Below, piece after piece: positions 1-37,564 of a stretch of DNA of 64,000 nt. Below the pieces are notes generated by a model. That model was given only the letters and a program-made list of their open reading frames with translations, did no database searches and was not told the DNA's origin. Each line of letters opens with the position of its first letter. Position 1 is the stretch's first letter. The position numbers and the translations under genes were made by a program. Source of the DNA: Marsupella aquatica (Eukaryota; Plantae; Marchantiophyta); assembly GCA_973895155.1 (NCBI GenBank), contig OZ316894.1, forward strand, positions 22,812,609-22,876,608. The letters are read 5' to 3'.

Positions 1-2009
1 TTTCTTTGTACTAAGTCACTGCCCCTGTCACCACAGCATTTTCTAGGTAAGATCGGACTTATATGAGTCTAGGAAAATGGCTGATCACGTGTATTAGTCA
101 TGCCTCCACACTGCAGTCCCCCTATCCCAATGGTGGGTGAAGACCTGTCCAACAAAGTGTGTCAAAACCTTGTGATGGCAGGGCCCTATGGAGCTCCTTT
201 GAAGCTGCTTTTTGTAAGCTTTCTCTTCCTCATAGCACAACATACAAGCAAGGTATCCATAACAAAAAGTATCAAGCTAGGTCTGACTTGCTAGAAAAAA
301 TAGGGTGGCACTTCGGGTCTCTAGCCGTACTGTGCCTGTAACCCACCAGTCTGTGCTATTGACAAATTATTGTATGAGATATACACAAATACCATTTATT
401 AATGATTATATTGTGTCACGGCTGGCCATGTCCTTGTGACCATGGACTCCATTGGACAACGATGGTGGCAGCCAACTACTATGCAAGGATGATCGGTGCA
501 GTCTAACTTATTGACCACGGTAAACTGAAGGGTTAAGACTCCTTGTGACCATGCGATGCAACTCCCGCTCAAAAATTCCCAGCAATATGATATGCTCTTT
601 CATATGCCCAATTATATTATATACGTAGAAATAAGCAATGGAGGTCACCCTTTGTACCGTATGTGGGCCCTGGCAAGCTTTTTAGTTTGTTTCTTACTGG
701 AGTTTTAGTGCTTTTGCCCTTGCTGGGATTCTCCTACTTTTTGGCTCTTAGAGTTTCTTAGGTGTTTCTTCTGTTTTCTCCCCTTTCTTGGGCGGCCTTT
801 CAGATCTTGTCTTGAGGTTTGTGTCTATCTGTTCTATGAAATTTTTATTTACACACTTTGAATGGGAATTTGAAACCCCCATTGACCACAAGGTTTGTCT
901 CTAAAACCTCCATGGACTACATTTTCTAAAATCTGAGCTTATTTTAATAACTTGATATTTATAAATTCCAATATTTTTTAGTGTTGGGGATACGCTGGAG
1001 GAGTAGCTACACTTCCATCAAAGTGACAGTAAAATTTTGGCTGCTTGGTTGGGTTTCTCATCGTAGATGCGAAAGGGTAAATTCTATGATATTATTTTCC
1101 CCGTGTTAACATGAATATTTGGGCTTGTGTGTTTATGTCTCCTCTTCTCTAGTTGCCTTGCAGGTGCAACACAATGAGTTAGTTTAGAACTCCTAACCAC
1201 CAAGTTATTGGCCCCAAATTCCAATGGACCACATTTTGGAATTTGAAGCCACAATGGACTACCATGTTGGACACAGTGTACTCTATTATTCTCTTATTAT
1301 TTTTGGACTTTTGCCCTCTATTATATTATTCCCTTATTATTCTGGGACTGTGCCTTCCCTTCCAAGCCCTCTATAGTTTAGGAGGAAGTAGAGCCTTGAT
1401 ACAAGCGCCTCAATTGGCCGTTGAAATAATTGTGATTGAAAGTCATAAAATGCAATTAAATTATAGAAATAAAAACCATACACCACCCCAACCTCACACA
1501 TAGCGAGCTAGGAACAAGTGATCAAGTTATGGACCCAACTCCCATGAACCACATTTTGGTGGTCTACACGAGTACACTATCCAACATAGAGGTCCATCCT
1601 GGCTTCACTTTGGGAACATGTGATTTCATTACTTCAGTTTGAAAGTCTACTTTCATTATCCTCTTATTATTGTTCTCATCAAACGTGTAAGCCACAGCGT
1701 CTCCAACACTTTAGTGAGGAATTTCACAGGCAATAGCGCAACAAGACTTCCCTGGACCAAAGCTACTTAGACGTTGCCACCTGTCCATGCCTCTGGATTC
1801 CCGTGAATCGTGCGGTCGTCGAGTCTCCACTGACGGATGAGGGGGACGATGGACCGGGGTGTCAGAGTCAGACGATGGCCACTTTTAAAGCATGTCGGAC
1901 TCTGGTGCAGCATGACAGTCATGCGTGGGCTTACTTCAGGCGTACACAAACATCCATTGGCTGTACGATGATTGATGAATTGGTCCATGGACGAACCGAC
2001 CAACGGGGC

Positions 2010-2330
2010 CAATAGGGGTCTCAATAGGGGTCTCAATAGGGGTCGGTCTCAATAGGGGTCTCAAAGCGTTAGTTATGGTCAAGGACAAAAACAGTTATAA
2101 CTTACCTACAGTAATTCACAGCGGGTCTCAACATTGTGGAGTAGCAGGTCTCAATAGGGGTCTCAATACTTCAATAGGGGTCTCAAAGCCTTAACTTAGG
2201 TTAAAGGACAAAGATCGTTATAATATTACCTAATTCCTACATTGAGACCCCTAGTGAGACCCCTATTGTGAATTAGGTAATATGTAACATTGTTGTGTGG
2301 AGTAGCAGGTCTCAATAGGTGTCTCAAAGC
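2010..2330. repeat. Cluster of 12-bp AATAGGGGTCTC repeats, with inverted copies near 2242-2267
   Basis: About 7 direct copies of (tc)aataggggtctc plus reverse-complement gagacccc(tattg) copies. Resembles subterminal repeats of a DNA transposon. Confidence 0.7.
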
Positions 2331-4333
2331 CTTAACGTAGTTTAAGCACAAAAAATAGTTATACCTAATTGGTAGTCCATAACTTTATGCCATAAAATGT
2401 GGTCATATGTCATGAGACTGGTGAAAAATATCAAATTTGTTTTTCACATAATTCCATGAAAAAGTCGTGGTCATGTGCTTATGACCAAAAGTCATTATCT
2501 GTAACTTTGAAGTTTAAAACGCCCTAATAATATTGTGGAGGGCACTTTTCCCACTGGCATGCAGAAATGTCCGTGAATGGGACAACTGTACTCAATCTTG
2601 GGCACACAATTTTGAGACTATATGCACTTGATGTTTGATGGACTTTGCTCTTGCCAAGATGGCACTAAGCAACAACACATGAACATGCCGCCTCCCACTT
2701 CCTACACAACAATGGTCATGACACTATAGGGAAATCCTGCGGGCAGCTGGTGCGGATCACCCTTGTGGGTGCCCATCCCATGTTTGCCTGGGGCTGTGAA
2801 TGAGGTGTCACTGGGCCGTTGCAAAAATTGAGACCCCCAGTAGTAAAGTTACTCATTGTTCTAATATGCTCTTTCTCCTCCCTCCTGCATTCATGTAATA
2901 GGTTAGGGGCTTTTCTTGATTTGAGGGACTCTAGAAAAAATCTTTGTTGTGAGCCTAGTAGTGCTCTTTACTTGCAAGCTTTACTACCCTTTTCATTTTA
3001 TTGGTCAATAGGGCTTTAATTATTTTGTTATAGGAGAGGACTCTTAGGTTGTTTGGTCTTCCTGGGTTTGTCCCTTGTTTTCTCCTCTTTGTTAGATCAT
3101 CTGCCTTTGGGATCTTGTCCCCCAATTGGGCACAATTTGTTCTTGGCACTGTGTTATATGCATAAACTAAGCTTTTCAGTTCACTAAGCTTCCCACTTGA
3201 ATGTTCAATAGGGCTTTAGTTCGTTTGCTTTTGTAGGGGTCGCTAAGGCTTTTTGGCTAGGGCGGTAGTTCTTAGGGGACTCTAAGGACTTTTGGCTAGG
3301 GCTTTAATTTTTCTGTCTTTGTAGGCACTCTCATGCTTTTTGGCCATCCTGGTTTGCTTTTGTTTTTGGGTCTCGAGAGGGATTCTTCGTTGTTCTTTCT
3401 ACCGTAGGCTTTGCGTTCGTGGATTCGTTTAGGTCCCTTTAATACTAATGCTCTTTTTGGTCATTCTTGCTGCTCGGCTTCCTTCCAAACTTCGAATTGA
3501 GTTCACTGCTTTTCAAGAACCAATTGAATGAATTTGCCAAGTCATGAACTCCAAAACACTCATGATTCTGAGGTATTCTTATTCATCAGTCTTTTCAAAT
3601 GGAGTTCTTCTTCCTTCTACTTCATGCTGTCGTTTTTTGGTCTCGAAAGGACCTTTTGAGCGTTCTCTTCAAAGTACATAGTAGCCTTTGCGTTCGTAGA
3701 GTGAAGTCATGGACACCAAAACACTCATTCGTCTGATGCGTTCTTCTTCATCCGTCGTTGTTTTTTTGGTCTAGAAAGGAATTCTCCATCGTACTTTTCA
3801 AAGTATACAGTGGCCTTTGCGTTCGTGGATTCTTCTTTTGAGTTTGTGTCTCTGAACCTCTTAGCTTTCTTTCGTTTCTTGCCTTGGAATCGAAAGGAGA
3901 CCCATGGAATAGACCCATCGAATAGAGGATAGACCACTTTTGCTTTCTCACTCCATTGTACTTTTTTTTCGCCCTTTTTTGTAAATCGGTACTTTTTCTC
4001 TCTCTAGTCCTGTTGCTCTTTTTCGTCCTTGCTACGCGTATTGGCTTACTTTCAACTCCGCGACGTGCTTTTGAATAACCAATTTAATGAATTTGCAAAC
4101 CTGTATGAAGATGAGAATCGTTCACCTGTTTGGTCCACTATGATCCAGCTCTTTGCTGCTTCCGAGACTCCTCTGGACCTCGATTAGATCGCCCAGCTCC
4201 AAAATATTCCAAAAGCTGCACCAAATCACCCTCTTAATGAGAGAAAGATCTAAAGAACATGAACACTCTGTCATAGCCCCCCAATGAAGTTATCGATTGC
4301 ACCGTCTAGTCACCGCCCAATCTCAATTCTTTC

Positions 4334-5356
4334 TTTTTTGCCTCGAAAAAAACTAAAAGAATTCAATTCAATCAGTCAGCATACAGAGGGGCGGAGTCCC
4401 AGAAAGGAGCGTCAACCCAGGTGGACCGAAGGTCAAAAGTGCCGGGACCCCGGTGAAGCCGGGACCAGGTAAGAAGCAGGCCAAAGAAAGGCCACCCAAA
4501 CAAGCTATTTGGAGTCTACACAGGAGCAGCACACTCCCAAAGACCGGCCAGTGATGAAGGACCGGCGGGGTCCCAAACAGTGGTTCCGTGATAAGAAAGA
4601 ATCTATCAGTCTAAAGTAGTACAGCCTCTAAACCTGCAGACCAGAGGACATCATGGTGGCCGTGGTGGGACTGGTTGGACTTGGAGAATCTCTTCGTGAA
4701 TTTGCCAGAGTCCATTCCAAGAACCATAATCCATTGCCAACTCATGCAGAGCTTCCCCGTGATTGATCTTCCCATTTTGAATCTTGGTTCTAAGCTGTTC
4801 CAGTCACGTCTGAGGTAGGTGCTAAGTCTATGCCATGCTTTCCTAATTACTCCGTGAGGATTGGGCCGAGTGTGCTCAATAAAATGTAAACATCGTTCCT
4901 TCCAGATGGACCAGCAGATGATGGCCCGAGAAACTTGCCATAGCTTCCCCGGAACGTCCCATTCGTCTGGTAGTTCATCCCCAACAAAGATATGAGCGGG
5001 TTGTAGATGTATCCGATACCCCTGAGTGAAGGTGCTTTGTTGAAGGATGGATTGTAACCACGTCCAGACTATCTGTGACATGCTGCAATCCCAGATGCAA
5101 TGAACGATGTCCTCATGCTTGTTCAATCCGCACCTAGTGCACCATGTAATCGGGTCGCCCGGTGGTAAACGTGGGAAACGCCAATGCTGTGTGGCCGGAA
5201 TTCGATAAATTAATTGCCACAAATAACAATTTTCTCGAGCGGCGCGGAAGTTGAGCCAGGTATGAGACCAGAGTTGGCGTGGATTGGGGGTCCAATTCAG
5301 TCGAAGCGCCCACTTATGTATTGCCTTATGTAGGAATCCCGGGGCCCGACCTTGAT
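4334..5356 (-). mobile_element. 5'-truncated L1-type LINE (ORF2 C-terminal zf-RVT zinc-binding region)
   Basis: ORF 4611-5222 has CTRC..EDIVHCIWDC..W and CWSIWKER motifs. Exact 16-bp TSD CAATCTCAATTCTTTC at 4318-4333 and 5357-5372. Short poly(A), read as T6 on + at 4334-4339. Confidence 0.9.
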
Positions 5357-8167
5357 CAATCTCAATTCTTTCAGTGAGGAAATTCAGGGCCCAATCAAAT
5401 CAAAAGAGCGGAGAACAGAAAGCGGAGAACAGAAAGCGAAGAAGAGAAGGAAGGAAGCGCGGGAACGGGAACGGGAGCGGACGTAGGACGAGGTCAACCC
5501 ACAGTCAAAAAGAAAAAGACAGTCAACAAGGCCAGAAGCTGCAAATTATGGGAGGGAATTGAATTGAAGACCGACATAAATTGAGGAATCAATCACGAGT
5601 CAATTGTTGGTAAATTCAGCGTCTTCTCAAACATCCATCAGACCACTTCAATTCTGGCTTAGACTGAAAACGAATTCTAGCCCAGAATCAGTAATTGACT
5701 CGTTATTGATTTGCTTTGTGTTGATTGAAAGACAAAATGTAGGCCGGAATCACGAAGATCTAACTGAGTACAACCAAGGCCGTGTCTCTTCCTCAATCTG
5801 TCCTTCTCCAAATTGTTCGGACTAATTAGAAGAAGCTTCTGAATGAACAATAATCGAAACAACAGATTACGCTTCAAACCTTCAGCAATCTGCCAGCTAC
5901 GTTGTAAACCGGCAGCAACTCGTTGCAAATAGTGGTGCATCCGCAGTGAGAGAGACGATCTCCGGCCGCCTCCGAATTGATGCAGAGATGAGCTGATTGA
6001 AGAGAGCAAAGCTGATACAGAACGAAGCGCCGACAAAGCACAGACTCAGCAAATTGTACAGGACAGGCTACTGTATAATATACAGTAATTATTGGCGTTC
6101 CTTTTACAGTCATGATGATTTGCAGCGGGGAAAAATGGATTTGAGTCTCCCATGGACCACAGAGTTAGTCTTTGAAACCCCCATGGATCACATTTCCCAG
6201 AACCGCACTTCCTAGAATTTGCGTTTAATTTTAATAACTTATATTCATACATTTAAACATTTTATAGTTTTGGGGATGTGCTAGAAGAAAAGGTAAATTA
6301 CACTTCCATCAAAGTGACCATGAATGTTTGCGTGGATGAGTAGTTGATGTATTGGGGGAAGGATAATTTCCACTGGAGTAATTTTCTTTGTGTTAATATG
6401 AAATAATTGGGTTCGTCTTTTCTAGTCTCCTCATTCCCTAGTTGCTAGGAATAATCTTTAATGTAGCTAATGCCACGTTCGATGCAAGAGATTATGCTAA
6501 GAATTAAGATTTTCTTGCATTGCTTTCTGACTTGGAGATTTCACTAGTTTTGGATGGATATTAAATCTTGGCTAGTAAAGTCTATGGCTAGGTGGAAAAC
6601 TGGTGAATGGGAACAGAAACAGGAAAACCTGGTGAATATTATATATTGCACTAGCCCAACTACCAGTTCTTTGAACATGAATAGAGATGAGGGTAAAAAA
6701 GTGTAGACCCTCAATGACACCAGCTGACCAAAGCTTCTTCAAATTCTAGAAGAAGAGCTGGCGGTTTCACCATAGCCCTCAACCATCTATCACACAACAG
6801 AACTCTTCACATGCGGCCCCTACTCCATGGACTCCCTTCACAGCCGGCCCTTACTCCACCCCATTCCTATTTTTCACCCCCACCTCTAATTGGATTATTG
6901 TCCCCTAAGTCATTGAACATAAATAGAGAGCAAGACAATAAAGAATAGTGCAATAAAAATGATTATATAATACTATTTCTGGTTCACTTTTGTCAATCTC
7001 TGTTTTTTGTTTTGTCCTTATTGAGACTTATGGTCTATAGTCTTCACTCTACAGAGTAATCCTCAAAAGTAGCTTTGCATTGCACTTGATTAGTAAGATG
7101 TGGCTAGGTGTAAAACTGGTGAACATTTGGAAAACAGGAAGAGAAAACCTGGACGGTGAATATTATATATCAGAGTGCAAAGTAAAACCAGAAAGCGGGA
7201 GAGAGGGTTCTTACCAACAGTGACTAAACCTTTCTATGGAGGTCAAAACTACCAACTAGCAAGTTTTTGCCATTAAAAAAGGTTATTCTAGCATACATCT
7301 TGACATAATGATTTTTTTCTGAATCTCTTTTGTGGGGGAGTGGAATTGGCGACTATCTCAAGGATCAAGGAAGGAAAATAAGTAGGACCAACTTCAAGAA
7401 ATTCATACATTTATGTATAGCCAATTTTCTCTAATCTTACAGACATCCATTTGATTGTCAAGGATGGGGCCTATAGAATTTAGAGTAAATTTGACTTACT
7501 TTTCTCTCCAAAATTTCTTTTGTAGTGTTGGCCCGTCCATGAAGTTGGGATGAACCCCAATGTGTAACTATGCAATTCAGATGGACCTACAATTGTTTTA
7601 CTGGCAATAGCTTATTTTGCAAGGTAATTCCGTTTCCACCAGAGTGTGACATAGAGGATTCTAATAAGATTCTTTATCTGATTTTAGTACTTATTTCTAA
7701 GGGTTAGATCTTCTTAAACCTTCAGATTCTGGAGAATAGGTTATTGCTAGGTGAGAAACTGGCTAATGAAGACAAAAGACACCTAACAATTCTAGCTAAA
7801 AGTGTGGAATATTTTTGTGGGTGTAAGGGTGGTTTACAAGAACTTGGGGGCAGCCCTTCCTTTTTTTTAATGTGTGAGATGCAATCCACACTTCACTTCT
7901 AAATTTGGGGGCATGATCAAGCAAAACCATTACCCAACTTAGTCATCGATCCCCATTTTTTCTGGGCTCATGTGTACATATTTTTTTGTCAAACACTTAT
8001 TACACCTCCTCTTGAGTTTATCTAAAAGATGGAGGAAGGGCAACTTCTTTTCATGGATTTCATTTATTACCATTAAACAAAACCTGACACATTCTGGCCC
8101 AAACATTTTAACTTTAGTGTATGGAAGTCCCCCCACTCTAATGTAAAAACCCCCCTAATACGACAAA

Positions 8168-9145
8168 CTAGTTCAATACCTGTGCGTTGCACGATAGATG
8201 TCCTTAAGGAAAAATATGTCGTGTTGCCCAAGATTCGTTAGGAAAAAAATTCATTTTGCCAAAGACGTTGTTATGTAAAAGATGTTGTTATGTGAAAGTT
8301 GTTGTTATAAGAAAGATGTAGTCAAGTAAAAAGATGTCATTAACAAAAAAAAGTTTATTTTGCCAAAGAAATCGTTATATGGAAAATGTAATCAAGTAAA
8401 ACTATTTCATCATTCAAGTAAAAAGATGTAGTTAAGAAAAAAAAGTTATTTCAATAAGGTATCCATTCAGATTCTTTCCTTTCAAACCTTAACTTCCCCC
8501 TCTTTTCACTATTTTTGGTCTCCTCTTTTTCTCATTTACCCTCCTTCCCCTTGCTCCTCCCCCCACCCACCCATCCAAGGCTAGAGCCCTTCGAGGCACT
8601 GCCCTACATAGCAAGTGTGCCCTCGCCCAACTGCTTGCCATCAATATATGCCCATGCCATGATCTTTACTATGTATTTGGGCCTTATTGCTTTAGTTTTT
8701 TTTGGCACTGAAAATGACACAAAATATGAATGTATAAAATCACCCCAATAGTATCTCTAATTTGACTCTTAACAATTTACAGTGAGCTATGTAGTATCAC
8801 TCTAGTGAGTATGTATGTACACCCTATTGAGTATACACAGTATTTCCTTACATGGACCATGGAAGGAGTATCTTTCTCGATCCTCGTGTATAGTGTTATC
8901 GTGTTTATTGTTTGTTTATCGCATAAAAGTTACACCAAAGTTTATATACCAGGTAAATAACAAAGTTTGTTTATCCCATTTGATTTCCTCTTGTTTGGAT
9001 AATCGTGTGACTTTTTTTCATTCACACTCCAGTAAATTCACTTTTTGGCTTTATTCTTTACCAGATTTCTCAGGTTTTGTGTCCTGCAAATTTGAATGAA
9101 AATCAGAGTACATATTGGCACACCATGTTACTATAAATTTAATTT
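8168..9145 (-). mobile_element. Older non-autonomous Helitron remnant upstream of AKR copy 1
   Basis: Minus-strand 3' end cgtgcaacgcacaggtattgaaCTAG(t) with hairpin. Carries the same AAAGATGT-type minisatellite as the 13745 element, and 8970-9140 resembles that element's 5' region (15650-15825). Its left part is missing in copy 2. Right boundary approximate. Confidence 0.65.
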
Positions 9146-9941
9146 AACACCAGCCATGACATGACTGTGGCTGCTGCTCACGTGAGCCCTACCAACTTTA
9201 TCTGTGGCTTTTGGTGCTAAAACAGAGGGAAGCTTCGTGGACAGCCTTGGAGAAGCGTCCCTCTCTTTATTCATGCTTACAATCTACGACAATTGCAATC
9301 AGGCACAATCTGGTGAAAAGCCCAACTAAGGGAGGCCGACCCATCCATTGCCGAGCCTGGAAAATTGCTTTGTAGATGCCAAAAGCCCTTCGCTAGTGAT
9401 CTAAAGATTTTCTGTCGTGGTAGATGAGGGTGATGAAATGCATGATGTCCGCGTCAGCTCATTGGGGTTTTAGAGCTGAGATCGATGGCTCTCGGCATAG
9501 ACAAGTGTTGACAGATTTTAAAAAGATTTCTCGCCGGATTCTAGTGAGGGTTCGTTCATCCGGTCCTGCTTTTGATCAGTGGCTCACGCCAGTGACAAGG
9601 TGCGGACGCGTATCTTGAGGATGTTTTTAAATTGATTGCATGGCTTCTCTCACACAGCTATATAAATTCTTGCACATGAACTCTAATCTGCATCCCACTC
9701 CCTCTGTCCTGAGGCTGATCCAGTGCGTCTTAAACATCCCCTCCGATACAGTGCATTTTATTCAACGTCGTTTAGTGGTCGTCTGCTCAAAATCTCATCA
9801 TCATTCTGTTCACACTCCATTTGCCAAGTCTCTGTTGTCGTCCCACCTCAGTTACTGCCTAGTTTGAGCTAGAGACTGTAGCTCGGCTCAGTCGAGTACA
9901 TCAGCTACAGTACAGTACTGATATAGAGTGGAGGCAGCATC

Positions 9942-12900
9942 ATGGCCGAAACAATTGGCAGAAAGAAGTTAGGCACGCAAGGGCTTGAGGTGCGTGTCTG
10001 ATTCCTCTGTCCTGCCATTATGCGAAAGCATTCAAGACTGCCGTTCAAGAAAATCATCTACAGTTGCTGTTTACATAGAACAGGACCACTTCCGTTAGTG
10101 CTGGAATGAGTTAGAAAGAGCGAGGCCCACGGATACTTTTAGCTCAGCCAGTATTTGCAATGTAGGGATTGAATGCATGGAAGCTAGCTGCCTGCCAGTG
10201 AGTCAATCGTGTCGGTTTCCAGTGTCGTGAGATTTCCACAATCGGCAAATTTGGCAGCGGTGAAATGGAGATTTTCCGATACATTGAGCATTGATTTTCA
10301 CCTGGTGTCTCATTCGAATTAATCTTGGAATGCGGATTTAGGAGTGGCATGGCAACAGTAGTAATGTGTGGGAAGTGGGTTTTAGGCTGGCAATCAAGAT
10401 GAAGCTATTGAAGGGGAAGCTCAGGATAGTTATTAGAGTTCTAATTTCCTTTTCTCTGGTCTCATGTTTCTGCTTTTGTGCAGGTGTCAGCGCTCGGACT
10501 CGGATGCATGAATTTCGCAGGCTTATATCATAACAACGATATCATTCCAGACGAGAACACCATAAACTTAATTCATACGGCATACAGTAAGGGAGTTACT
10601 TTCTTCGACACTTCTGATGCATACGGCCCACACACCAGTGAGATCCTCATTGGAAAGGTATGTTCGCAACTCTGACAGTCTGTGTCCATTCGTGCACCTC
10701 AAATGGGGTTCAGATCTCAATGTTGGAATTTACAGCAAGGAGTCGGCGGTGCCCACTAACTCAAAGCTGCTGCTTGAAATTGTCATTAGGCTATCAAAAG
10801 CCTTCCTCGGGAGAAGTTACAGATAGCTTCGAAGTATGGAATTGTTTATTTCGAGAAACCTGACGGCACAAAAGCCGCGAAAGTCCGTGGAGATCCCGAG
10901 TATGTTCGGCAGGCATGCCTGGCCAGCCTCAAACGATTGGATGTGGACTACATTGACTTGTATTACCAGCACCGAATAGATGGTACCATCCCAATCGAAG
11001 TGACGGTGAGTGCCATCGTCAAGGCTGACTCTGAGCGTCGTCAGAGCAGCTAACTGAGCACTTGATGTACAGAGCATCGTGAAGTATTACTTAAAATTGA
11101 TGGTGGTCTGCATAATACGGATATTGAGTTATTCAAATAGAAGGAGCCGATGTTGTGTGGAACTCTGGATATTAACGACGAACACATGTATGTACAGATG
11201 GGAGAACTGAAGAAACTGGTGGAGGAAGGGAAGATAAAGTACATTGGTTTGTCGGAGGCAGCTCCAGATACTATTAGAAGAGCACACGCAGTTCACCCGA
11301 TCACAGCAATCCAGATAGAGTGGTCTTTGTGGACACGCGATGTTGAAGAAGAATTAGTTCCTCTCTGCAGGTTGGTAAAATTGGGTTTGCTCTGTTTTTG
11401 AGTTGGAATGCACGCCTTCGTGAAGAAATTTACAACATCGTACCTAGTTTTGTAGTTTTGGCGATAAACATACACTGTCTATCTCGCCCTTCAAGTAATA
11501 CCTGGGTAGATGCAACGGCTCGAGCGTCAATACCTGAATTTCCGCTCCTTTCCGGCGTTTCCCTCTGTACCAAGCAACATGCGTAGGTACAGAAGTAGCA
11601 GCCAATAAATGACTACGCGTGGATGATATCCTTGCTGATATTCTGATTTTGTTCATATGCAGGGAACTAGGGATTGGAATAGTCCCTTACAGCCCACTTG
11701 GACGGGGATTCTTTTCAGGAAAAGCTTCTCAGGAGACACTCGATGCGAAGGACGTTCGAGCCGTACGTATCTAGTCCAACAACTCACCGAAAGCAATTAG
11801 CGAACTGGCATTCACCAGAGTGTGTCATGGCTAATTTCGTGAGGCTAAATAATTTCAGTTCCGCAGTCTAAAGTGACACCGTTCATGTTTTGGTTCTTTT
11901 CTCGCCAACGGGATGGCTTTTCCTTAGTTGCTCGATCAAAATTGCTGTCTGATTTGGTCATCGTCTACTTGTTCTTAACGGAATGTGGACAATCCTACAT
12001 CGGAAACTGTTGGAACTTTCAACAGCATGGACGGGCTAGGAATTGAACCTAGGACCTTCCGTGTACATCGTAGTGCTCTACCACTGAGCTACAGGCTCTT
12101 CGTTCGAGTGTGGTTCTTTTCCAACACCCACCCTTGAGCCGCACTCGCTACAAGGGAAACTCCTTTTCTTTGGCTCTGATACCATGTTGGAACTTTCAAC
12201 AGCATGGATCGGCTAGGAATTGAACCTAGGACCTTCCCTGTACATCGTAGTGCTCTACCACTGAGCTACAGGCTCTTCGTTCGAGTGTGGTTCATTTCCA
12301 ACAGAAACTGCGTTAGTATTTGTCATTGCCAAGATTGACAAACGATTGCTCCTGAATCTTTGCCTCTCGTATGCTGGATTGCAGAAGTTCTACCCCAGAT
12401 TTACTCAAGAAAATGTGGAGAAAAACAAGGTGCTTTTCGAGCGTGTGTCGTCCCTTGCTAAGACGTATGGATGCACTCCCGGCCAGCTTGCGTTGGCGTG
12501 GGTGTGTAGCCAAGGGGATGAGAGCGTTAGTGTCGTACCCATTCCTGGTAAGTACTTTCCAAATTCAGATAGGAACGAACTGAGAAATCCTCTTGAAAGC
12601 TCCCTCCATTTCAACATATTAAGACTGGTCAAGACAAAACACCTTCATTTTGGTATTCATAAACCTGGTGTTAAGCTCCTCTCCGTAGCTTTTGACTACT
12701 TAGATAAGAAAATAACGAACCGAGAAATCCTCTTAACGGCTCCTCCGATCCATTTCAACATTCTAGAGACTCGTCAAGACATCACACCGCCATTTCTGTC
12801 AGCCTGAACATGAATTTCTGATGAAGAGTTTATCGCGCTTTGTTCTGCTCAGGTACAACAAAGGTTGCGAACTTAAATGAGAACTTAGGGGCTTTGAAAG

Positions 12901-13052
12901 TAAAGTTGACGCCCAAGGAGCTAGAAGAGGTGGCAGCTGCTGTGCCAAGCGCGGATGTGGCAGGCGGTAGATTTTCCGAATCCCATATACTGAACTTCAC
13001 CTGGAAGGATGCCGTCACACCGCCTTTGGAATTGACTTCGAAAACCGCATAG
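9942..13052 (+). CDS. Aldo-keto reductase (plant auxin-induced/perakine-reductase-like AKR13 type), copy 1; 7 exons
   Basis: Exons 9942-9989, 10484-10657, 10790-11005, 11198-11370, 11663-11762, 12385-12547, 12853-13052, all GT-AG. Motifs: [25 protein letters not shown] (Asp/Tyr), IASKYG (Lys), DLYYQHR (His), [28 protein letters not shown]. Frame is open across all junctions. Confidence 0.95.
12008..12303 (-). mobile_element. TRIM (terminal-repeat retrotransposon in miniature), 296 bp, in AKR copy 1 intron 5
   Basis: Two 119-bp TG...CA LTRs (12008-12126, 12185-12303; about 4 mismatches). The 58-bp internal region has a tRNA-iMet PBS TGGTATCAGAGCC and a PPT AAGGGTGGG on the minus strand. 5-bp TSD GAAAC at 12003-12007 and 12304-12308. 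Copy 2 has the empty site (~23447-23451). Confidence 0.95.
12028..12098 (-). promoter_or_regulatory. tRNA-derived Pol III type-2 promoter cassette inside the TRIM LTR (second copy at 12205-12275)
   Basis: GAGCCTG-TA-GCTC-AGTGGTA-GAGC-A-CTACG-ATGTACA-CGGAA-GGTC-CTAGG-TTCAATT-CCTAG-CCCGTCC-A. A box TAGCTCAGTGG, B box GGTTCAATTCC, intact D and T stems. Acceptor and anticodon stems are largely unpaired. Confidence 0.85.
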
Positions 13053-13134
13053 AAGTTCTCAGGCCAGACCGTGGGGCAAATAAAAATATGCCATTGTTCT
13101 GCAGGACCCTCTGCCAATTTCTGCTGTCTGCAGG

Positions 13135-13588
13135 GTCGTCATTTTGCAGAATAGGCGAAGTAGCTGGCGGTAAAATTCTCCTAAGGACCTTCTCGATCAG
13201 GATCCTCTTGTTGGGCTAGAAATGTAGTCCCTAACGACTCCAGAGAGTGATTGTGGCACCCTTTCAGCCAGCTCTCGGAACAGAACGTCAACATTGCTTT
13301 GGCAATCATCTCATCATCGATCATGATACTGTCAAACATGACGTACTTGAGAGCGTCATTTTGCAGAATAGATGGAAGTAGCTGGCTGTCTACACACCGG
13401 GTAAATTTCTCCTAAGGATCGTCTCGATCAGGATCCTCTTCTTGGGCTAGAAATGTAGTCCCTACCGACTCCAGAGAGTGATTGTGGCACCCCTTGCAGC
13501 CAGCTCTGGGAACAGAACGCCAACTTTCCTTTCGCAATGATCTCATCATCGATCATGATACTGTCAAACATGACGTACTTGAGAACGC
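13135..13588. repeat. ~230-bp tandem duplication just downstream of the AKR stop (also 24272-24725 in copy 2)
   Basis: gatcaggatcctctt...tagtccctaacgactccagagagtgattgtggcacc...tcaaacatgacgtacttgaga occurs twice in each copy. Confidence 0.85.
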
Positions 13589-13744
13589 TTTATTTGTAGA
13601 AGTGTATGAGGAAATGACACAAACTGTTGGATTTGAGCCTTTTGCCTGTACCCACTTGAGCTCCATCCTTTGGTGGAACTCAAGTTATTCTTGAATAAGA
13701 GATTTTGATACACTACTGTCACTTGCACTTTACTTTATGGTGAA

Positions 13745-16029: not shown

Positions 16030-17251
16030 TGAATATACACATACTTTTTACAGAAAAAGGCCAAATAGAGTACAAAAGAATAAACAAGAGAGGTCCCAAG
16101 TGGACAAAACCAAACGCAAAAGAAGTGAGCAAAAGGAAACCCTAAAAACCAAGAAAGAGGAACTAAAAGAAGTGAGCAAAAGGAAACCCCTAAAAACCAA
16201 GAAAGAGGAACTAAAACTACCGCAAATGGACCGAGGTCCTCATCATACCTAGCAAATGTGGCAACAAGCTAGTGGTCTACATCAAGTGTCGAAACTAGAT
16301 CGGCAAGTGGGACAGGAATGTCCTCTAGGGGGGCTAGCCGCTGCGGAGTCACACTAGCACCCACTGTCAGAGATCGACGATAGACGGCCCGAGCTTGAGC
16401 ACGCTGTAAGGTGACTGAAATGCGTTAGCGAAAGTGCGTGGTCAAAAAAGATAGCGGGGGCCCGGTGGGACCCATCCGGCCGTGAACATCCCGAGCAGCT
16501 TGGCGAAGAAGCCCGTCGAACTGATGATGGAGACGCCCAAATATCTCAAGAGCAAGGGGCAGGAAGCTATCAGATGAAGCTCGTGCAGCATATTTGGCCT
16601 CCTTCGTTGTTGCTGCTCGTGATGCTGCTGCCCCTGTCGTTGTTGCCGCTGTCCCAATGATGTCTTGGCGCAATGGGTTTGCCACCACTACATCTGCCAA
16701 AGTACGGTGACCTTCACGGACCATGGTAAGATCCACCCGTAACCGCTGTGATGGAGGACCAGGTAACTCGAGCACCACCTCCCGCCGCGCGCAGACCAAA
16801 GAGCCAGAGAGAACCTGAGCAGTCGCATCTCTCACAGTGTCGTGAACAAAAATGGTTTCGCCGCCCAAACTGCATTGAAAAAGATGGACACCTGTGGCAT
16901 CACAAGGCTTCCCACAAGTGCAAGTAGGAGGTAAACCAGCAAGAAGTGGGTGGGGCAAGCCCATACGAAGATGCATGGCTGTCACAAACTCCGCTGAAGA
17001 CATCCGCAGGTGAGGAATGACTGGATTGGCCTGAAGCCAGCCTCCTGCGCCCTTCCCTCCGGAAGAAAGAATCCAAGCTCGGTCCGTGTTAGGTGTCTCG
17101 GTGAGGATGCTGGAAAGGGTGAAAGCGTGCATACGCCCAACAAGGTCTGCCTGAAGACGGACGGGGTCCAAGGATAAAAACTCCTGGAATGAAGGTAACG
17201 CAGCTCGAACAGGATCGGGTAATGATGACCGCGCCGTGCGCAAATGAATTT
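16030..17251 (-). mobile_element. 5'-truncated CRE/R2-like non-LTR retrotransposon with restriction-like endonuclease
   Basis: ORF 16425-17243 has a CTCG..HLFQC zinc knuckle, a VHDTVRD (RHD-like) motif and RVDL..DV..KEAKY..FLPLALEIFGRL. A premature stop precedes RISVTLQRAQA. Absent from copy 2. Candidate 6-bp TSD AGTTCT (16024-16029, 17252-17257). Confidence 0.8.
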
Positions 17252-17856: not shown

Positions 17857-20800
17857 AAGTTGACCCGGGGTTCCATCTATATTAAAAAAACTTAAAAATC
17901 AAAGAATAGGCTATGCTAAAGCTAATTAAAAACTAAATACTCACCTAGGAAAGTAGCACCCGTCAGGTGGATTGTGCCATAAGGGGAGGTCAAAAATATA
18001 TGATTGAAGTCTTCCTACTTTCTACAATGAATTCTCATAAGTAGAGACAGGCAAGAGGAGTCGGGGTACAGGGAGAGCCTTTCCTATGCATACTAAAAAT
18101 ATATTTTTAGGTAGTATTTATCACTGCTAGACTTCTACTGTAGTTGGCACGTATCACTACCAAGACATGTAGTTAGCACGTGGACTGAAAAGAATTTCAT
18201 TAGCATCACGAATATCATTTTTCTAGTTTCGGGAAAGGTATGTGAGTGATGAGACTTCACCCCTTCCTAGGAAGTGTTTCTTTCTTCAAGACATCCGTAC
18301 TATCTATGTGAGCAATTGGATTAATATACGTTTCAGGAGGACCATTAGATCTGATGTTTTGATATGAGCTATTATATTTCTCTAGATTTATGGCGAACCA
18401 TTAGATTTCAGAAACCCTCTTAGTTAGATAAAGATTTGGCTTGCCAAAAGGAAAAATCTCATTATTTTTCTGTGTACTAAGTCACTGGCCCGGTCACCAC
18501 AGCATTTTCTAGCTACGATCAGACAGGCAAGGAAAATGGCTGATCACGTGTATTAGTCATGCCTCCACCCTGCAGTCCTGCTATCCCAATGGTGGGTGAA
18601 GACCTGTCCAACAAAGTGTGTCAAAACACTGTGATAGCAGCTATGGAGCTCCTTTAAAGCTGCTTTTTGTAAGCTTTCTCTTCGTCATAGCACAACATGC
18701 AAACAAGGTACCCATAAAATAAAGTGTCTTAGCTAGGTCTGACTTGCTAGAAAAAATAGGGTGGCACTTCGGTCTCTAGCCGTACTGTGATTGTAACCCA
18801 CCAGTCTGTGCTATTGACAAATTGTTGTATGAGATATATGCAAATAACATTTATCAATGATTATGTTGTATCACGGGTGGCCATGTCCTTGTGACCATGG
18901 ACTCTATTGGAAAACGATGGTGGCAGCCAACTACTATGCAAGGATGATCGGTGCAGTCTAACTTACTGACCATGGTAAACTGAAGGGTTGGACTCCTTGT
19001 GACTTGGAAGGGAGAACTTTATGCCATAAAAATTGGTCATATGCTATGAGACTGGTGAAAAATATCAATTTTGTTTTTTACATAATTCTATGAAAAAGTC
19101 ATGGTCATTTGCCTGACCAAAAGTCATAATCTGTAACTTTGAAGTTTTGAGACACCCTAGTAATACTGTGGAGGGCACTTTTCCAACTGGAAAACCTGGT
19201 GAATATTATATATAGCACTAGCCCCACTACCAGTTCTTTGAACATGAATAGAGATAAAGGTAAAAAAAGGTCAACCCTCATTGACACCAGCTGACCAAAG
19301 CTTCTTCAAATCGTAGAAGAAGAGCCGTCGGTTTCACCATAGCCCTCAACTATCAATCACACAATGGAACTCTTCACAAGCAGCCTCCCTATTCCATCGA
19401 CTCTCTTCACATGTGGCCCCTACTCCACGGACTCCTTCACAGCCGGCCCTTATTTCAGATGCGGTGCAATACTCCCGGCACTACTCCACCCCATTCCTAT
19501 TTTTCACCCCCACCTCTAATTTTGAACATAAATAGAGAACAAGACAATAAAGAATAGTGCAATAAAAATGATTATATAATACTATTTCTTATTCACTTTT
19601 GCCTATCTCTGTTCTTTGTTTTGTCCTTATTGAGAGTTATGGTCTAGAGTCTTGAGAGTTATGGTCTATAGTCTTCACTCTACACAGTAATTTTACACAG
19701 CAGTCCTCAAAAGTAGCTTTGCATTGCACTTGATTAGTAAGATGTGACTAGGTGCAAAACTGGTGAATGGAAAACAGGAAAAGAAAACCTGGACGGTGAA
19801 TATTATATATCAGAGTGCAAAGTAACTAAAACCCCAAAGCTGGAGAGAGGGTTCTTACCAACAGCGACTAAACCTTTTTATGTCAGTCAAAACTAGCAAC
19901 TAGCAAGATTTTGCCATTAAAAAAGGTTATTCTAGCATACATCTTGACATAATGATTATTTTCTGATTCTCTTTTGTGGGGGAGTGGAATTGGCGAGTAT
20001 CTCAAGGATCAAGAAAGGAAAATAAGTAGGACCAACTTCAATAAATTCATAGATTTATGTATAGCCAATTTTCTCTAATTGTACAGACACCCATTCGATT
20101 GTCAAGGATGGCCCAACTGCTTGCCATCAATATATGCCCATGCCATGATCTTTACTATGTATTTGGGCCTTATTGCTTTTGCTTTTTTGGCACTGAAAAT
20201 GACACAAAATATGAATGTATAAAATCAGCCCAATAGTATCTGCAATTTAACTCCTAACAATATAGAGTGAGCTAGAGTAATATCACTCTATTGAGTATGT
20301 ACACCTTTCTGAGTATACACATATTTACTTACATGGACCATGGAAGGAGTATATTTCTTGATCCTCGTGTATTGTTTGTTTATACCAAAGTTTATATACC
20401 AGGAAAAGAACAAAGTTTGTTTATCCCATTTGATTTCCTCTTGTTTGGATAATCGTGTGACTTTTTTTCATTCACACTCCAGTAAACTCACTCTTTGGCT
20501 TTATTCTTTACCAGATTTCTCAGGTTTTGTGTCCTGCAAATTTGAATGAAAATCACAGTACAAATTGGCACACCATGTTACTATAAATTTAATTTAACAC
20601 CAGCCATGACATGACTGTGCCTGCTGCTCACTTGAGCCCTACCAACTCTATCTGAGGCTTTTGGTGCTGAAACAGAGGGAAGCTTCGTGGACAGTCTTGG
20701 AGAAGCTTCCCTCTCTTTATTCATGCTTACAACCTACGACAATTGCAATCAGGCACAATCTGGTGAAAAGCAAAACTAAGGGAGGCCGACCATCCATTGC

Positions 20801-21390
20801 CGAACCTGGAAAATTGCTTTGTAGATGCCAAAAGGCCTTCGCAAGTGATCTAAAGATATTCTGCCCTGGTAGATGAGGGTGATGAAATGAATGATGTCCG
20901 CGTCAGCTCATTGGGGTTTTAGAGCTGAGATCGATGGCTCGCGGCATTGACAAGTGTTGACAGATTTTAAAAAGATTTCTCGCCGGATTCTAGTGAGGGT
21001 TCGTTCATCCGGTCCTGCTTTTGATCAGTGTCTCACGCCAGTGACAAGGTGCGGACGCGTATCTTGAGGATGTTTTTAAATTGATTGCATGGCTTCTCTC
21101 ACACAGCTATATAAATTCTTGCACATGAACTCTAATCTGCATCCCACTCCCTCTGTCCTGAGGCTGATCCAGTGCGTGTTAAACATCACCTCCGATACAG
21201 TGCATTTTATTCAACGTCGTTTAGTGGTCGTCTGCTCAAAATCTCATCATCATTCTGTTCACACTCCATTTGCCAAGTCTCTGTTGTCGTCCCACCTCAG
21301 TTACTGCCTAGTTTGAGCTAGAGACTGTAGCTCGGCTCAGTCGAGTACATCAGCTACAGTACAGTACTGATATAGAGTGGAGGCAGCATC

Positions 21391-24190
21391 ATGGCCAAAA
21401 CAATTGGCAGAAAGAAGTTAGGCACGCAAGGGCTTGAGGTGCGTGTCTGATTCCTCTGTCCTGCCATTATGCGAAAGCATTCAAGACTGCCGTTCAAGAA
21501 AATCATCTACAGTTGCTGTTTACATAGAACAGGACCTCTTCCGTTAGTGCTGGAATGAGTTAGAAAGAGCGAGACCCACGGATACTTCTAGCTCAGCCAG
21601 TATTTGCAATGTAGGGTTTGAATGCATGGAAGCTAGCTGCCTGCCAGCGAGTGAATCGTGTCGGTTTCCAGTGTCGTGACATTTCCACGATCGGCAAATT
21701 TAGCAGCGGATAAATGGAGATTTTCCGATAGATTGAGCATTGATTTCCACCTGGTGTCTCATTCGAATTAATCTTGGAATGCGGATTTAGGAGTGGCATG
21801 GCAACAGTAGTAGTGTGTGGGAAGTGGGTTTTAGGTTGGCAATCAAGATGAAGCTATTGAAGGGGAAGCTCAGGATAGTTATTAGAGTTCTAATTTCCTT
21901 TTCTCTGGTCTCATGTTCTGCTTTTGTGCAGGTGTCAGCGCTCGGACTCGGATGCATGAATTTCGCAGGCACATATGATAACAATGATATCATTCCAGAC
22001 GAGAACACCATAAACTTAATTCATACGGCATACAGTAAGGGAGTCACTTTCTTCGACACTTCTGATGCATACGGCCCACACACCAGTGAGATCCTCATTG
22101 GAAAGGTATGTTTGCAACTCTGACAGTCTGTGTACATTCGTGCACCTCAAATGGGGTTCACATCTCAATGTTGGAATCTACAGCAAGGAGTCGCCGGTGC
22201 CCACTAACTCAAAGCTGCTGCTTGAAATTGTCATTAGGCTATCAAAAGCCTTCCACGGGAGAAGTTACAGATCGCTACGAAATATGGAATTGTTTTTTTC
22301 GAGAAACCTGACGGCACAAAAGCCGCGAAAGTCCGTGGAGATCCCGAGTATGTTCGGCAGGCATGCCTGGCCAGCCTCAAACGATTGGATGTGGACTACA
22401 TTGACTTGTATTACCAGCACCGAATAGATGGTACCATCCCCATCGAAGTGACGGTGAGTGCCATCGTCACGGCTGAAACTGAGCGTGGTCAGAGCAGCTA
22501 ACTGAGCACTTGATGTACAGAGTATCGTGAAGTACGACCTAAAATTGATGGTGGTCTGTATAATACGAATATTGAGTTATTCAAATAGAAGCAGCCGATG
22601 TTGCGTGGAACTCTGGATATTAACGACGAACACATGTATATACAGATGGGAGAACTGAAGAAACTGGTGGAGGAAGGGAAGATAAAGTACATTGGTTTGT
22701 CGGAGGCAGCTCCAGATACTATTAGAAGAGCACACGCAGTTCACCCGATCACAGCAATCCAGATAGAGTGGTCTTTGTGGACACGCGATGTTGAAGAAGA
22801 ATTAGTTCCTCTCTGCAGGTTGGTAAAATTGGGTTTGCTCTGTTTTTGAGTTGGAATGCACGCCTTCGTGAAGAATTTACGTACCTATCTTTGTAGTTTT
22901 GGCGATAAACATACACTGTCTATCTCGCCCTTCAAGTAATACCTGGGTAGATGCAACGGCTCGCGGGTCAATACCTGAATTTGCGCTCCTTTCCGGCGTT
23001 TTCATCTGTACCAAGCAACATGCGTAGGTACAGAAGTAGCACCCATGAATGAGAACGCTTGGATGATATCCTTTGCTGATAACAGTTTCTGATTTTGTTC
23101 ATATGCAGGGAACTAGGGATTGGAATAGTCCCTTACAGCCCACTAGGACGGGGATTCTTTTCAGGAAAAGCTTCTCTGCAGACACTCGATGCGAAGGACA
23201 TTCGAGTCGTACGTATCTAGTCCAACAACTCACCGAAAGCAATTAGCGAACTGGCATTCACCAGAGTGTGTCATGGCTAATTTCGTGAGGCCAATAATTT
23301 CAGTTCCGCAGTCTAAAGTGACTCCGTTCATGTTTCGGTCTTTTCTCGCCAGTGGGATGGCTTTTCCTCAGTTGCTTGATCAAAATTGCTGTCTGATTTG
23401 GTCACCATCTACTTGTTCTTAACTGAATGTGGACAATCCTACATCGGAAACTGCGTTAGTATTTCTCATTGGAGGATTGGCAAACGATTGCTCCTGAATC
23501 TTTGCCTCTCGTATGCTGGATTGCAGAAGTTCTACCCCAGATTTACTCAAGCAAATGTGGAGAAAAATAAGGTGCTTTTCGAGCGCGTGTCGGCCCTTGC
23601 TAAGACGCATGGATGCACTCCCGGCCAGCTAGCGTTGGCGTGGGTGTGCAGCCAAGGGGATGAGAGCGTTAGTGTCGTACCCATTCCTGGTAAGTACTTT
23701 CCAAATTCAGATAGGAACGAACAGTGGAATCCTCTTGAAAGCTCCTCAATTTCAACATATTAAGACTGGTCAGTCAAAACACATTCATTTTGGTATTCAT
23801 AAACCTGGTGTTAAGCTCCTCGCCGTAGCTTTCGACTACTTTCGAATAGATAGAAAATAACGAACCGAGAAATCCTCTTAACGGCTCCTCCATTTCAACA
23901 TTCTAGAGACTCGTCAAGACAACACCGCCATTTCTGTCAGCCTGAACATTAATTTCTGATGAAGAGTTTATCGCGCTTTGTCCTGCTCAGGTACAACAAA
24001 GGTTGCCAACTTAAATGAGAACTTAGGGGCTTTGAAAGTAAAATTGACGCCCAAGGAGCTAGAAGAGGTGGCAGCTGCTGTGCCAAGCGCGGATGTGGCA
24101 GGCGGTAGATTTTCCGAATCCCATATACTGAACTTCACCTGGAAGGATGCCGTCACACCGCCTTTGGAATTGACTTCGAAAACCGCATAG
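21391..24190 (+). CDS. Aldo-keto reductase, copy 2; 7 exons
   Basis: Exons 21391-21438, 21932-22105, 22238-22453, 22646-22818, ~23109-23208, ~23527-23689, ~23991-24190. Same splice sites and catalytic residues as copy 1; frame intact. Confidence 0.95.
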
Positions 24191-24881
24191 AAGTTCTCAG
24201 GCCAGACCGTGGGGCAAATAAAAATATGCCATTGTTCTGCAGGACCCTCTGCCAATTTCTGCTGTCTGCAGGGTCGTCATTTTGCAGAATAGGCGAAGTA
24301 GCTGGCGGTAAAATTCTCCTAAGGATCTTCTCGATCAGGATCCTCTTGTTGGCTAGAAATGTAGTCCCTAACGACTCCAGAGAGTGATTGTGGCACCCTT
24401 TCAGCAAGCTCTCGAAACAGAACGTCAACATTCCTTTGGCAATCATCTCATCATCGATCATGATACTGTCAAACATGACGTACTTGAGAGCGTCATTTTG
24501 CAGAATAGATGGCAGTAGCTGGCTGTCTACACACCGGGTAAATTTCTCCAAAGAATCGTCTCGATCAGGATCCTCTTCTTGGGCTAGAAATGTAGTCCCT
24601 AACGACTCCAGAGAGTGATTGTGGCACCCCTTGCAGCCAGCTCTCGGAACAGAACGCCAACTTTCCTTTCGCAATCATCTCATCATCGATCATGATACTG
24701 TCAAACATGACGTACTTGAGAGCGCTTACTTGTAGAAGTGTATGAGGAAATGACATAAACTGTTGGATTTGAGCCTGATGCCTGTACCCACTTGAGCTCC
24801 ATCTTTTGGTGGGACTTTGTAGAGTTATTCTTGAATAAGAGATTTTGACACACTGTCACTTGCACTTTACTTCATCGTGAA

Positions 24882-37000: not shown

Positions 37001-37564
37001 GTTTCAATCCCGGTTTGATTTTTAATCCTGGTGAAACTGGTGACCACCTGTAATCCAATTTCTCTTGGGAATTCAGTTTGGAAACTAGCATGAAATGTGA
37101 GTACTGTGTCTTAAATTTTGTAGTGTGCCAACTTTTCTGACATTTCATGTATAGCCTTGCCAGAATTATCACCCCTTTCAATGACATAGGGATGTCAAGA
37201 GGACCAAAGAGATTATTTGGCACCTATTTCACGGGTCTTAACAGATCAGGCTCTGTAAAATGTAAAATTTGGAGGATAGTTAACCAAAAAAAAATTGATT
37301 CTGCAAAAACAAAGAATGAGTCCCAAAGTGCTTGGAAGTGGCCAAGCTCCACGGTAATTTTTTTGGCTAGGTATGATTTATGGTCAAACTGATAACGTGA
37401 TCCTAAAAGGACTGAAGCAATAAAGGCCAGATCATCAACTGTTTAGTACACTTAGAGGAAAGTCCCTAAGAATTCCCTTAATATGAGAGCTTATTCATGT
37501 GTCAATAGGGTATAATTATGTTGAAAACAGAAGCAACAACCTGTAACAATAGCAGATTTTATCG

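What the first reader, a model, noticed from the sequence alone, without database searches (positions are those of the whole stretch)
12008..12303. Miniature LTR retrotransposon whose LTRs are mostly a tRNA-derived Pol III cassette
Seen: a complete 296-bp TRIM with TG..CA LTRs, iMet PBS, PPT, 5-bp TSD and an empty site in the paralogue. About 71 of the 119 LTR bases form a tRNA-length cassette in the element's sense orientation. A and B boxes and the D and T stems are intact; acceptor and anticodon stems have decayed (GTA at the anticodon position). Established: Cassandra TRIMs carry 5S rRNA sequence in their LTRs and use Pol III. Inference: this is a tRNA-based counterpart, a SINE-like promoter with LTR-type replication, that was mobile after the AKR duplication. 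I do not recall a described family of this kind but could not search.
Basis: partly seen in the sequence, partly recalled or inferred. Interest (0 to 1): 0.85.

Follow-up and report, generated by a model that had tools for sequence, protein, structure and literature searches.

The report
Liverwort Helenus-type tRNA-bearing mini-retrotransposon
A 296-base, gene-less retrotransposon in an intron of what is likely a liverwort carries a tRNA-like sequence in each end repeat and is likely copied by RNA polymerase III; this kind of element was described in 2024 as Helenus, so this is a new host record and not a new kind.

Summary
Window 12008-12303 is a complete 296-bp TRIM on the minus strand: two 119-nt TG..CA LTRs (4 differences), a 58-nt core with a Met-type PBS and a PPT, a 5-bp TSD, and an empty site in the paralogous aldo-keto reductase gene. 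Each LTR holds a 71-nt tRNA-like cassette (Rfam tRNA 32.7 and 32.6 bits) with A and B boxes. Contigs from four public runs show many copies with different flanks, and one run appears to carry the empty allele of this locus.

The novelty claim fails. TRIMs with tRNA-derived LTRs were described as Helenus/TRIMp3 (Kojima 2024, PMC10886601). The one plant family there, Helenus-1_SMo of Selaginella, has nearly the same layout. This scan also noted Helenus-type elements before: 111 findings in at least 21 other genomes.

What is new is modest. The host is most likely a leafy liverwort, a lineage absent from that paper and from my literature searches, and the element is shorter than any listed Helenus (311-1263 bp). 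Pol III transcription and the autonomous helper are inferred, not shown. Verdict: new member of a known kind, interest 0.3.

The parts
12003..12007 (+). Target-site duplication, left copy (GAAAC)
12008..12126 (-). 3' LTR, 119 nt, TG..CA ends, 8-nt terminal inverted repeat
12028..12098 (-). tRNA-like cassette in the 3' LTR (A box 12091-12081, B box 12049-12039)
   Evidence: Rfam RF00005 32.7 bits, E 6.3e-5; stems counted
12127..12135 (-). Polypurine tract next to the 3' LTR (8 of 9 purines)
   Evidence: sequence
12127..12184 (-). 58-nt non-coding internal region; no ATG-started frame over 38 codons anywhere in the element
12173..12184 (-). Primer-binding site directly after the 5' LTR; assignment to the 3' end of initiator tRNA-Met is recalled knowledge, not from a call
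   Evidence: sequence; only one such motif next to an LTR end in the window
12185..12303 (-). 5' LTR, 119 nt
12205..12275 (-). tRNA-like cassette in the 5' LTR (A box 12268-12258, B box 12226-12216); predicted Pol III start near 12275
   Evidence: Rfam RF00005 32.6 bits, E 6.8e-5; start site inferred
12304..12308 (+). Target-site duplication, right copy (GAAAC)
11763..12384 (+). Host GT..AG intron of an aldo-keto reductase gene (622 nt; 321 without element and one TSD); the element lies antisense to the gene
   Evidence: tblastn exons, splice sites; exact bounds inferred
23447..23451 (+). Empty site (single GAAAC) in the paralogous AKR copy of a ~95% identical segmental duplication

Best explanation
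This is a multi-copy, gene-less LTR retrotransposon of the Helenus (TRIMp3) type in what is likely a leafy liverwort; its tRNA-like cassette likely acts as an internal RNA polymerase III promoter, and the transcript is predicted to be copied and integrated by the proteins of an unidentified autonomous LTR retrotransposon. Shown: the LTR/PBS/PPT/TSD anatomy, the tRNA-like cassette with A and B boxes, insertion after the AKR duplication, and many copies with different flanks. Inferred: TFIIIC and Pol III would start near 12275 in the 5' LTR. The sense strand has no run of four T inside the element, so the RNA would read through both LTRs and stop in the flank, as SINE transcripts do; the first T4 is at 11941, 67 nt past the end. 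Host initiator tRNA-Met would prime at the PBS, the 91-nt strong-stop DNA would jump to the 3' LTR, the PPT would prime the second strand, and a helper integrase would leave the 5-bp TSD. The helper is likely a Copia or a chromovirus, the groups that use full-length tRNA-Met primers in plants. My odds: Helenus-type TRIM 0.95, Pol III-driven about 0.7.
For: Anatomy and empty paralogous site. Rfam tRNA hits above the gathering score in both LTRs, with intact D and T stems but a short, mostly unpaired anticodon arm and no ARAGORN call; Kojima reports this pattern for Helenus. Multi-copy: (4 of the 11 listed runs laid), contigs break off at the LTR termini with heterogeneous flanks: 12 contigs in X2 and 14 in X3 at 12008 (agreement 0.41 and 0.43), 9 in X2 at 12303, 8 in X5 at 12185. 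Depth in the internal bin 12134-12164 is 10-42 times the flank median (the tool warns this is not a copy number). Related contigs rejoin the LTR end after 14-24 different letters just 5' of the cassette (tables 5 and 5c), so U3 varies while the cassette and terminus are kept. Probable empty allele: X5 record 32 starts at 12304 and has 2 differences in 297 nt from this gene copy, against 14 substitutions and one gap between the window's paralogues; its 54 unplaced letters fit 11949-12002, as does the depth (7.35 x 30/31 = 7.11). Host: four AKR exons are 176 of 201 aa identical to a Calypogeia fissa protein, against at most 147 for Ceratodon, 130 for Marchantia and 135 for Selaginella, and they pair with it at 99/97 support. 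Helper class: PMC6317226 passages.
Against: No expression evidence bears on Pol III use, and the paper lists only Cassandra as validated. The lack of a T4 run is unremarkable: 74% of shuffles also lack one. None of 7 common LTR variant positions falls in the 22 box nucleotides, but that has P = 0.23, and only 40 of 145 variant rows were shown. The cassettes do not fold into a cloverleaf and are not clearly more stable than shuffles (z = -0.98 and -1.78). LTR divergence (4 of 119) is somewhat high for an insertion absent from an allele that differs by 7 of 513 nt (P about 0.08). The X5 joint row itself was not among the rows displayed, and contigs can be chimeric in repeats. No helper element was found in the window. 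The host rests on one gene family and a 20-row tree with one leafy liverwort species.
Confidence: 0.8

Rival explanations
1. An ordinary Pol II-transcribed TRIM in which the tRNA-like sequence is an old captured tRNA or SINE head that now rides along, or the element spreads by read-through from host promoters.
For: Pol III activity is unproven here and for Helenus in general. Box conservation across copies is not statistically shown. The element sits inside a gene, as TRIMs often do.
Against: The cassette fills 71 of 119 LTR bases, leaving 28 nt upstream for a Pol II promoter. Both boxes are intact at tRNA-like spacing (31 nt between them). Related copies vary just upstream of the cassette but keep it. 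The same boxes are kept across Helenus families in fungi, animals and Selaginella.
Confidence: 0.15
2. The cassette supplies the element's own reverse-transcription primer (self-priming) instead of, or besides, a promoter.
For: The cassette's 3' end reads CCA, as a mature tRNA does. Earlier unchecked scan notes raised this for diatom elements.
Against: The 3'-anchored ungapped match between the cassette end and the PBS complement is 3 nt in both LTRs. The PBS is the common plant Met type (recalled). Kojima found no such complementarity in Helenus.
Confidence: 0.03
3. Not a mobile element: a local tandem duplication of a tRNA pseudogene inside an intron.
For: Both repeats score as tRNA in Rfam, and some of the depth over the T arm may come from true tRNA genes or SINEs.
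Against: TG..CA ends with terminal inverted repeats, PBS and PPT in the correct places, a 5-bp TSD, a clean empty site in the paralogue, and many contigs breaking exactly at the LTR termini with different flanks.
Confidence: 0.02

Closest known systems
Helenus-1_SMo of Selaginella moellendorffii (Kojima 2024, PMC10886601; whole text read, supplement searched, figures not visible)
   Same: LTR 120 vs 119 nt, 5-bp TSD, cassette in the same orientation and place (starts at LTR position 33 vs 29; 16 vs 20 nt after it). By-eye comparison with the supplement sequence: 23 of 26 identical over the 5' part of the cassette with a 20-nt exact run, 25 of 30 over the 3' part, last 8 LTR bases identical, first 8 match at 7, PBS at 11 of 12. 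The 20-nt motif occurs once in the whole supplement, in this family (line breaks could hide others).
   Different: Core 58 vs 85 nt and total 296 vs 325 bp. U3, the anticodon arm and the core show no evident similarity by eye. Helenus-1_SMo has a T4 run after the cassette in its LTR; this element has none. The host is a liverwort, not a lycophyte. Common descent was not tested statistically.
Helenus / TRIMp3 as a class (fungi, animals, Selaginella; Kojima 2024)
   Same: TRIM under 1 kb with a tRNA-derived sequence in each LTR, boxes A and B conserved, non-functional tRNA, PBS and PPT, 5-bp TSD as in fungal and plant families.
   Different: Shorter than the listed range of 311-1263 bp. No bryophyte is in Table 1, and the supplement has 0 hits for Marchantia, Physcomitr-, Calypogeia, Sphagnum or Anthoceros. 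Most fungal Helenus prime from an anticodon loop; this PBS is of the 3'-end type.
Cassandra TRIMs (known here through Kojima's description and search listings; Kalendar 2008 not read)
   Same: Non-autonomous LTR element with a Pol III gene-derived sequence in the LTRs.
   Different: Cassandra carries 5S rRNA sequence, is 565-860 bp, and has validated Pol III transcription. This element carries a tRNA-type cassette.
SMART and other plant TRIMs (via PMC10886601; PMC4717578 passages)
   Same: About 290-300 bp, PBS, PPT, trans-mobilised, often found in introns.
   Different: No small-RNA cassette described. The 2016 survey found TRIMs in Selaginella but none in Physcomitrella.

Membership tests
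Helenus (TRIMp3) | TRIM: under 1000 bp, two LTRs, no coding capacity | tested here: met
   296 bp, two 119-nt LTRs, longest ATG-started frame 38 codons
Helenus (TRIMp3) | tRNA-derived sequence inside the LTRs | tested here: met
   Rfam RF00005 above gathering score in both LTRs
Helenus (TRIMp3) | Box A with TRGCY and YGG, box B with GGTTC | tested here: met
   Both boxes present in both LTRs; motifs as stated in the paper
Helenus (TRIMp3) | PBS and PPT between the LTRs | tested here: met
   the tRNA-iMet assignment is recalled
Helenus (TRIMp3) | 5-bp TSD in plant and fungal families | tested here: met
   GAAAC on both sides, single in the paralogue
Helenus (TRIMp3) | Interspersed repeat family | tested here: met
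   Contigs with different flanks at the LTR termini in 4 of 4 runs laid; no genome assembly held, so no copy count and no TSDs of other copies
Helenus (TRIMp3) | Cassette is not a functional tRNA | tested here: met
   ARAGORN none; acceptor 4 of 7, anticodon arm 16 nt with 1-2 of 5 pairs; tRNAscan-SE not available
Helenus (TRIMp3) | Boxes more conserved than the rest of the LTR across copies | tested here: inconclusive
   0 of 7 common variant positions in 22 box nt, P = 0.23; only 40 of 145 rows shown
Helenus (TRIMp3) | Transcription by RNA polymerase III (proposed, not validated, for Helenus) | not testable with these tools
   needs 5' RACE, ChIP or in vitro transcription
Helenus-1_SMo family or lineage | Same family: about 75% identity over 75% of the length (the paper's clustering rule) | tested here: inconclusive
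   By eye only: 48 of 56 identical in the cassette outside the anticodon arm, but U3 and core unlike; probably a separate family
Cassandra | 5S rRNA-derived sequence in the LTRs | tested here: not met
   Rfam scan of 11800-12500 to E = 1 listed two tRNA hits and one chance hit, no 5S rRNA
SINE2 (tRNA-derived SINE) | tRNA head with a non-LTR tail, no LTRs, PBS or PPT | tested here: not met
   LTR pair, PBS, PPT and 5-bp TSD present

The most novel reading that the evidence does not exclude
The liverwort element and Selaginella's Helenus-1_SMo descend from one tRNA-promoter TRIM that predates the split of bryophytes and vascular plants, or that moved between them. That would make a land-plant Helenus lineage older than Cassandra's reported ~250 My, kept at a minimal size and holding a tRNA-like acceptor, D and T fold through paired changes while losing the anticodon arm. 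By eye, the T stem is 5 of 5 in both with one pair changed on both sides; the acceptor is 7 of 7 in Selaginella and about 6 of 7 in common liverwort variants. Having no internal T4 run, the liverwort family would be the cleanest system for proving Pol III-driven LTR retrotransposition with a tRNA-type promoter.
Probability: 0.3. Interest if true: 0.55.

Novelty: new member of a known kind. Interest (0 to 1): 0.3.

Why it matters
The class is known, so this does not surprise a transposon specialist. It adds a second plant lineage, probably the first bryophyte, to Helenus, and it sets a smaller size than any listed family. The element is multi-copy and appears to be polymorphic at this locus, so it is a usable system for the open point in the 2024 paper: whether Helenus is really transcribed by Pol III and which autonomous element moves it. 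It also warns annotators that such LTRs pass Rfam's tRNA threshold and can inflate tRNA gene counts in liverwort genomes.

Tried and rejected
No whole genome is held, so copy number, TSDs of other copies, tandem arrays and the helper could not be searched directly. BLAST of the element against the window finds no other copy; the best other hits have E of 2.2 or more.

No RNA holder was listed among 11 runs, which says nothing about expression.

A per-position table of variation for one LTR was not obtained, so the box-conservation test rests on the 40 of 145 variant rows shown and is inconclusive.

Free folding gave no cloverleaf and z-scores of -0.71 to -1.78 for four sequences. The absence of T4 runs is not significant. 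Self-priming was rejected on a 3-nt match. Assigning the cassette to tRNA-Tyr from 'GTA' was rejected because the arm is one base short and mostly unpaired. The Rfam Plastid-ycf2 hit (18.9 bits against gathering 65.7, E 0.41) is chance. A second 119-bp repeat at 60537-60875 lacks TG..CA ends and a TSD and is not a sister TRIM.

One unexplained record: X2 record 12 joins this locus's left flank to an LTR with a longer U3. A chimeric contig through the repeat is my guess; it was not resolved.

Literature searches for a liverwort or bryophyte Helenus: Helenus + retrotransposon, 6 papers, 5 listed; liverwort + TRIM + non-autonomous LTR + tRNA since 2016, 0; liverwort + terminal-repeat retrotransposons in miniature, 2 reviews seen as listings only; TRIMp3, 9 papers, 8 listed, only Kojima relevant; bryophyte + TRIMs + Cassandra + retrotransposon, 1. 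Repbase, Dfam and most subscription journals were not searchable, so an existing entry cannot be excluded. Look-ups of earlier scan notes by sequence gave three unrelated prokaryote or phage tRNA notes; by genome and by plant words they gave nothing.

Full report
Observation. The stretch 12008-12303 consists of two 119-nt direct repeats, 177 nt apart, that differ at 4 positions. Read on the minus strand it has TG..CA ends with an 8-nt terminal inverted repeat, a primer-binding site directly after the 5' LTR (12184-12173), a purine tract before the 3' LTR (12135-12127), and a 58-nt core. GAAAC flanks it on both sides. It lies antisense in a GT..AG intron (11763-12384) of an aldo-keto reductase gene. 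The window holds a second copy of this gene region at about 95% identity, and that copy has one GAAAC and no element. With the element removed the two regions match at 311 of 325 nt. The insertion therefore postdates the duplication, since LTR elements are not known to excise cleanly (established knowledge).

The cassette. Rfam's tRNA model matches 12098-12028 and 12275-12205 end to end at 32.7 and 32.6 bits, above the gathering score of 29. ARAGORN calls nothing. In both LTRs the A and B boxes are intact and 31 nt apart, the D stem pairs 4 of 4, the T stem 5 of 5 and the acceptor stem 4 of 7. The anticodon arm is 16 nt with 1-2 of 5 pairs. Free folding keeps the T hairpin but gives no cloverleaf and no clear excess stability. 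It is a tRNA-derived sequence, not a working tRNA, and the GTA triplet does not name its parent.

Other copies. No genome is held. Eleven public runs were listed, none on record as RNA; I laid four at 80% likeness. In them 146, 373, 226 and 103 contig records fell on the 901-nt stretch, concentrated on the element. Depth over an internal bin is 10-42 times the flank median, which the tool says is not a copy number. Better evidence is that contigs break at the LTR termini into unrelated flanks: 12 (X2) and 14 (X3) at 12008, 9 (X2) at 12303, 8 (X5) at 12185. Other contigs leave the sequence just 5' of the cassette and rejoin the LTR end after 14-24 different letters, and some carry different cores. 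So there are subfamilies that share the termini and cassette but differ in U3. Common variants at cassette positions 2, 66 and 67 would bring the acceptor stem to 6 of 7 pairs, though true tRNA genes or SINEs may contribute to these counts. None of 7 common variant positions lies in the boxes, which is not significant (P = 0.23; 40 of 145 rows shown).

Polymorphism. X3 holds the filled left junction (record 17, 11816-12014, no differences, only 7 letters into the LTR). X5 record 32 begins at 12304, differs from this gene copy at 2 of 297 nt against 14 substitutions and a gap for the paralogue, and has 54 further letters that fit 11949-12002 by length and depth. I read this as an empty allele of the same locus. 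It is an inference, because the joint row was not displayed. The LTR divergence of 0.034 is a little high for that reading (P about 0.08) but compatible.

Host. The best hit to one AKR exon was a Calypogeia fissa protein at 98% (120 of 3826 hits listed). Four exons together are 176 of 201 aa identical to it, against 147 or fewer for Ceratodon, Marchantia, Selaginella, Diphasiastrum and seed plants, and the two pair at 99/97 support in a tree of 20 rows that I chose. The host is most likely a leafy liverwort other than C. fissa. This rests on one gene family.

Mechanism. Shown: the parts, the insertion and the dispersal. Inferred: the boxes recruit TFIIIC, and Pol III starts near 12275. There is no T4 run on the sense strand until 11941, so the RNA would span the element and end in the flank; this absence is not significant by itself. 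A host initiator tRNA-Met would prime (assignment recalled). The cassette cannot plausibly prime itself, with a 3-nt match. The 91-nt strong-stop DNA would transfer to the 3' LTR, and a helper's reverse transcriptase and integrase would finish the cycle. Full-length tRNA-Met primers are used by most plant Copia groups and most chromoviruses (PMC6317226, passages), so the helper is not narrowed further. No helper sequence was found in the window.

Comparison with what is known. Kojima 2024 (PMC10886601; whole text read; supplement searched; figures not visible) defines Helenus as TRIMs with tRNA-derived sequence in their LTRs, groups them with Cassandra and Ajax as TRIMp3, and says Pol III activity is not yet validated for them. 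This element meets every sequence criterion I could test. The only plant family there is Helenus-1_SMo from Selaginella (LTR 120, core 85, TSD 5). Compared by eye, its cassette sits at nearly the same place and is identical at 48 of 56 positions outside the anticodon arm, and its termini and PBS are nearly the same; U3 and core are unlike. Against common descent, tRNA D and T arms are alike across tRNAs, the B-box variant occurs 18 times in the supplement, Met PBS and TGTT ends are common in plant non-autonomous elements (PMC13570524, passages), and Kojima argues for several independent origins. Later papers only cite Helenus (passages). Five searches found no bryophyte Helenus, but Repbase, Dfam and subscription journals were out of reach. 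Earlier notes of this scan list 111 Helenus-type findings in at least 21 genomes, the eight shown being fungi, diatoms and one unnamed host, and none matched plant search words. I had found the paper before seeing them.

Verdict. Real, mobile, and a new member of a known kind: probably the first bryophyte Helenus, and at 296 bp shorter than any listed family. Interest 0.3. The boldest open reading, an ancient land-plant Helenus lineage shared with Selaginella, has about 0.3 probability.

Noticed in passing
window 26218-28500 (-), 29951-30649 (+), 35450-37003 (-), 42717-43505 (-), 44313-44969 (+): A cluster of five open frames with Arg/Lys/Ser-rich tracts; four have linker-histone H1/H5 Pfam hits (E 8e-5, 8e-10, 4e-4 below cutoff, 1e-11; none for 42717-43505). 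They recall sperm protamine-like proteins of Marchantia (recalled, not tested).
   Followed up: partly
window 60537-60655 and 60757-60875: A second 119-bp direct repeat, 97.5% identical, 101 bp apart, without TG..CA ends or a TSD. Nature unknown.
   Followed up: partly
window 1-13744 vs 18467-24881: Segmental duplication carrying two AKR gene copies, about 95% identical over 8625-13744 and 81-91% further upstream. Both versions are seen in runs X1-X3, and a third, more distant AKR paralogue shows in all four runs.
   Followed up: partly
window 55664-56275 (-): Integrase core (Pfam rve, E 6e-11), a fragment of an LTR retrotransposon; no similarity to the TRIM ends found.
   Followed up: partly
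window 4611-5399 (-) and 16425-17249 (-): Open frames that look like C-terminal pieces of non-LTR retrotransposon proteins (recalled resemblance); no Pfam hit at E 0.001.
   Followed up: no
window 26657-27542, 53974-54289, 57386-58120, 13137-13587: Degenerate tandem repeats seen in the self-BLAST; the first lies inside the 760-aa H1-like frame.
   Followed up: no
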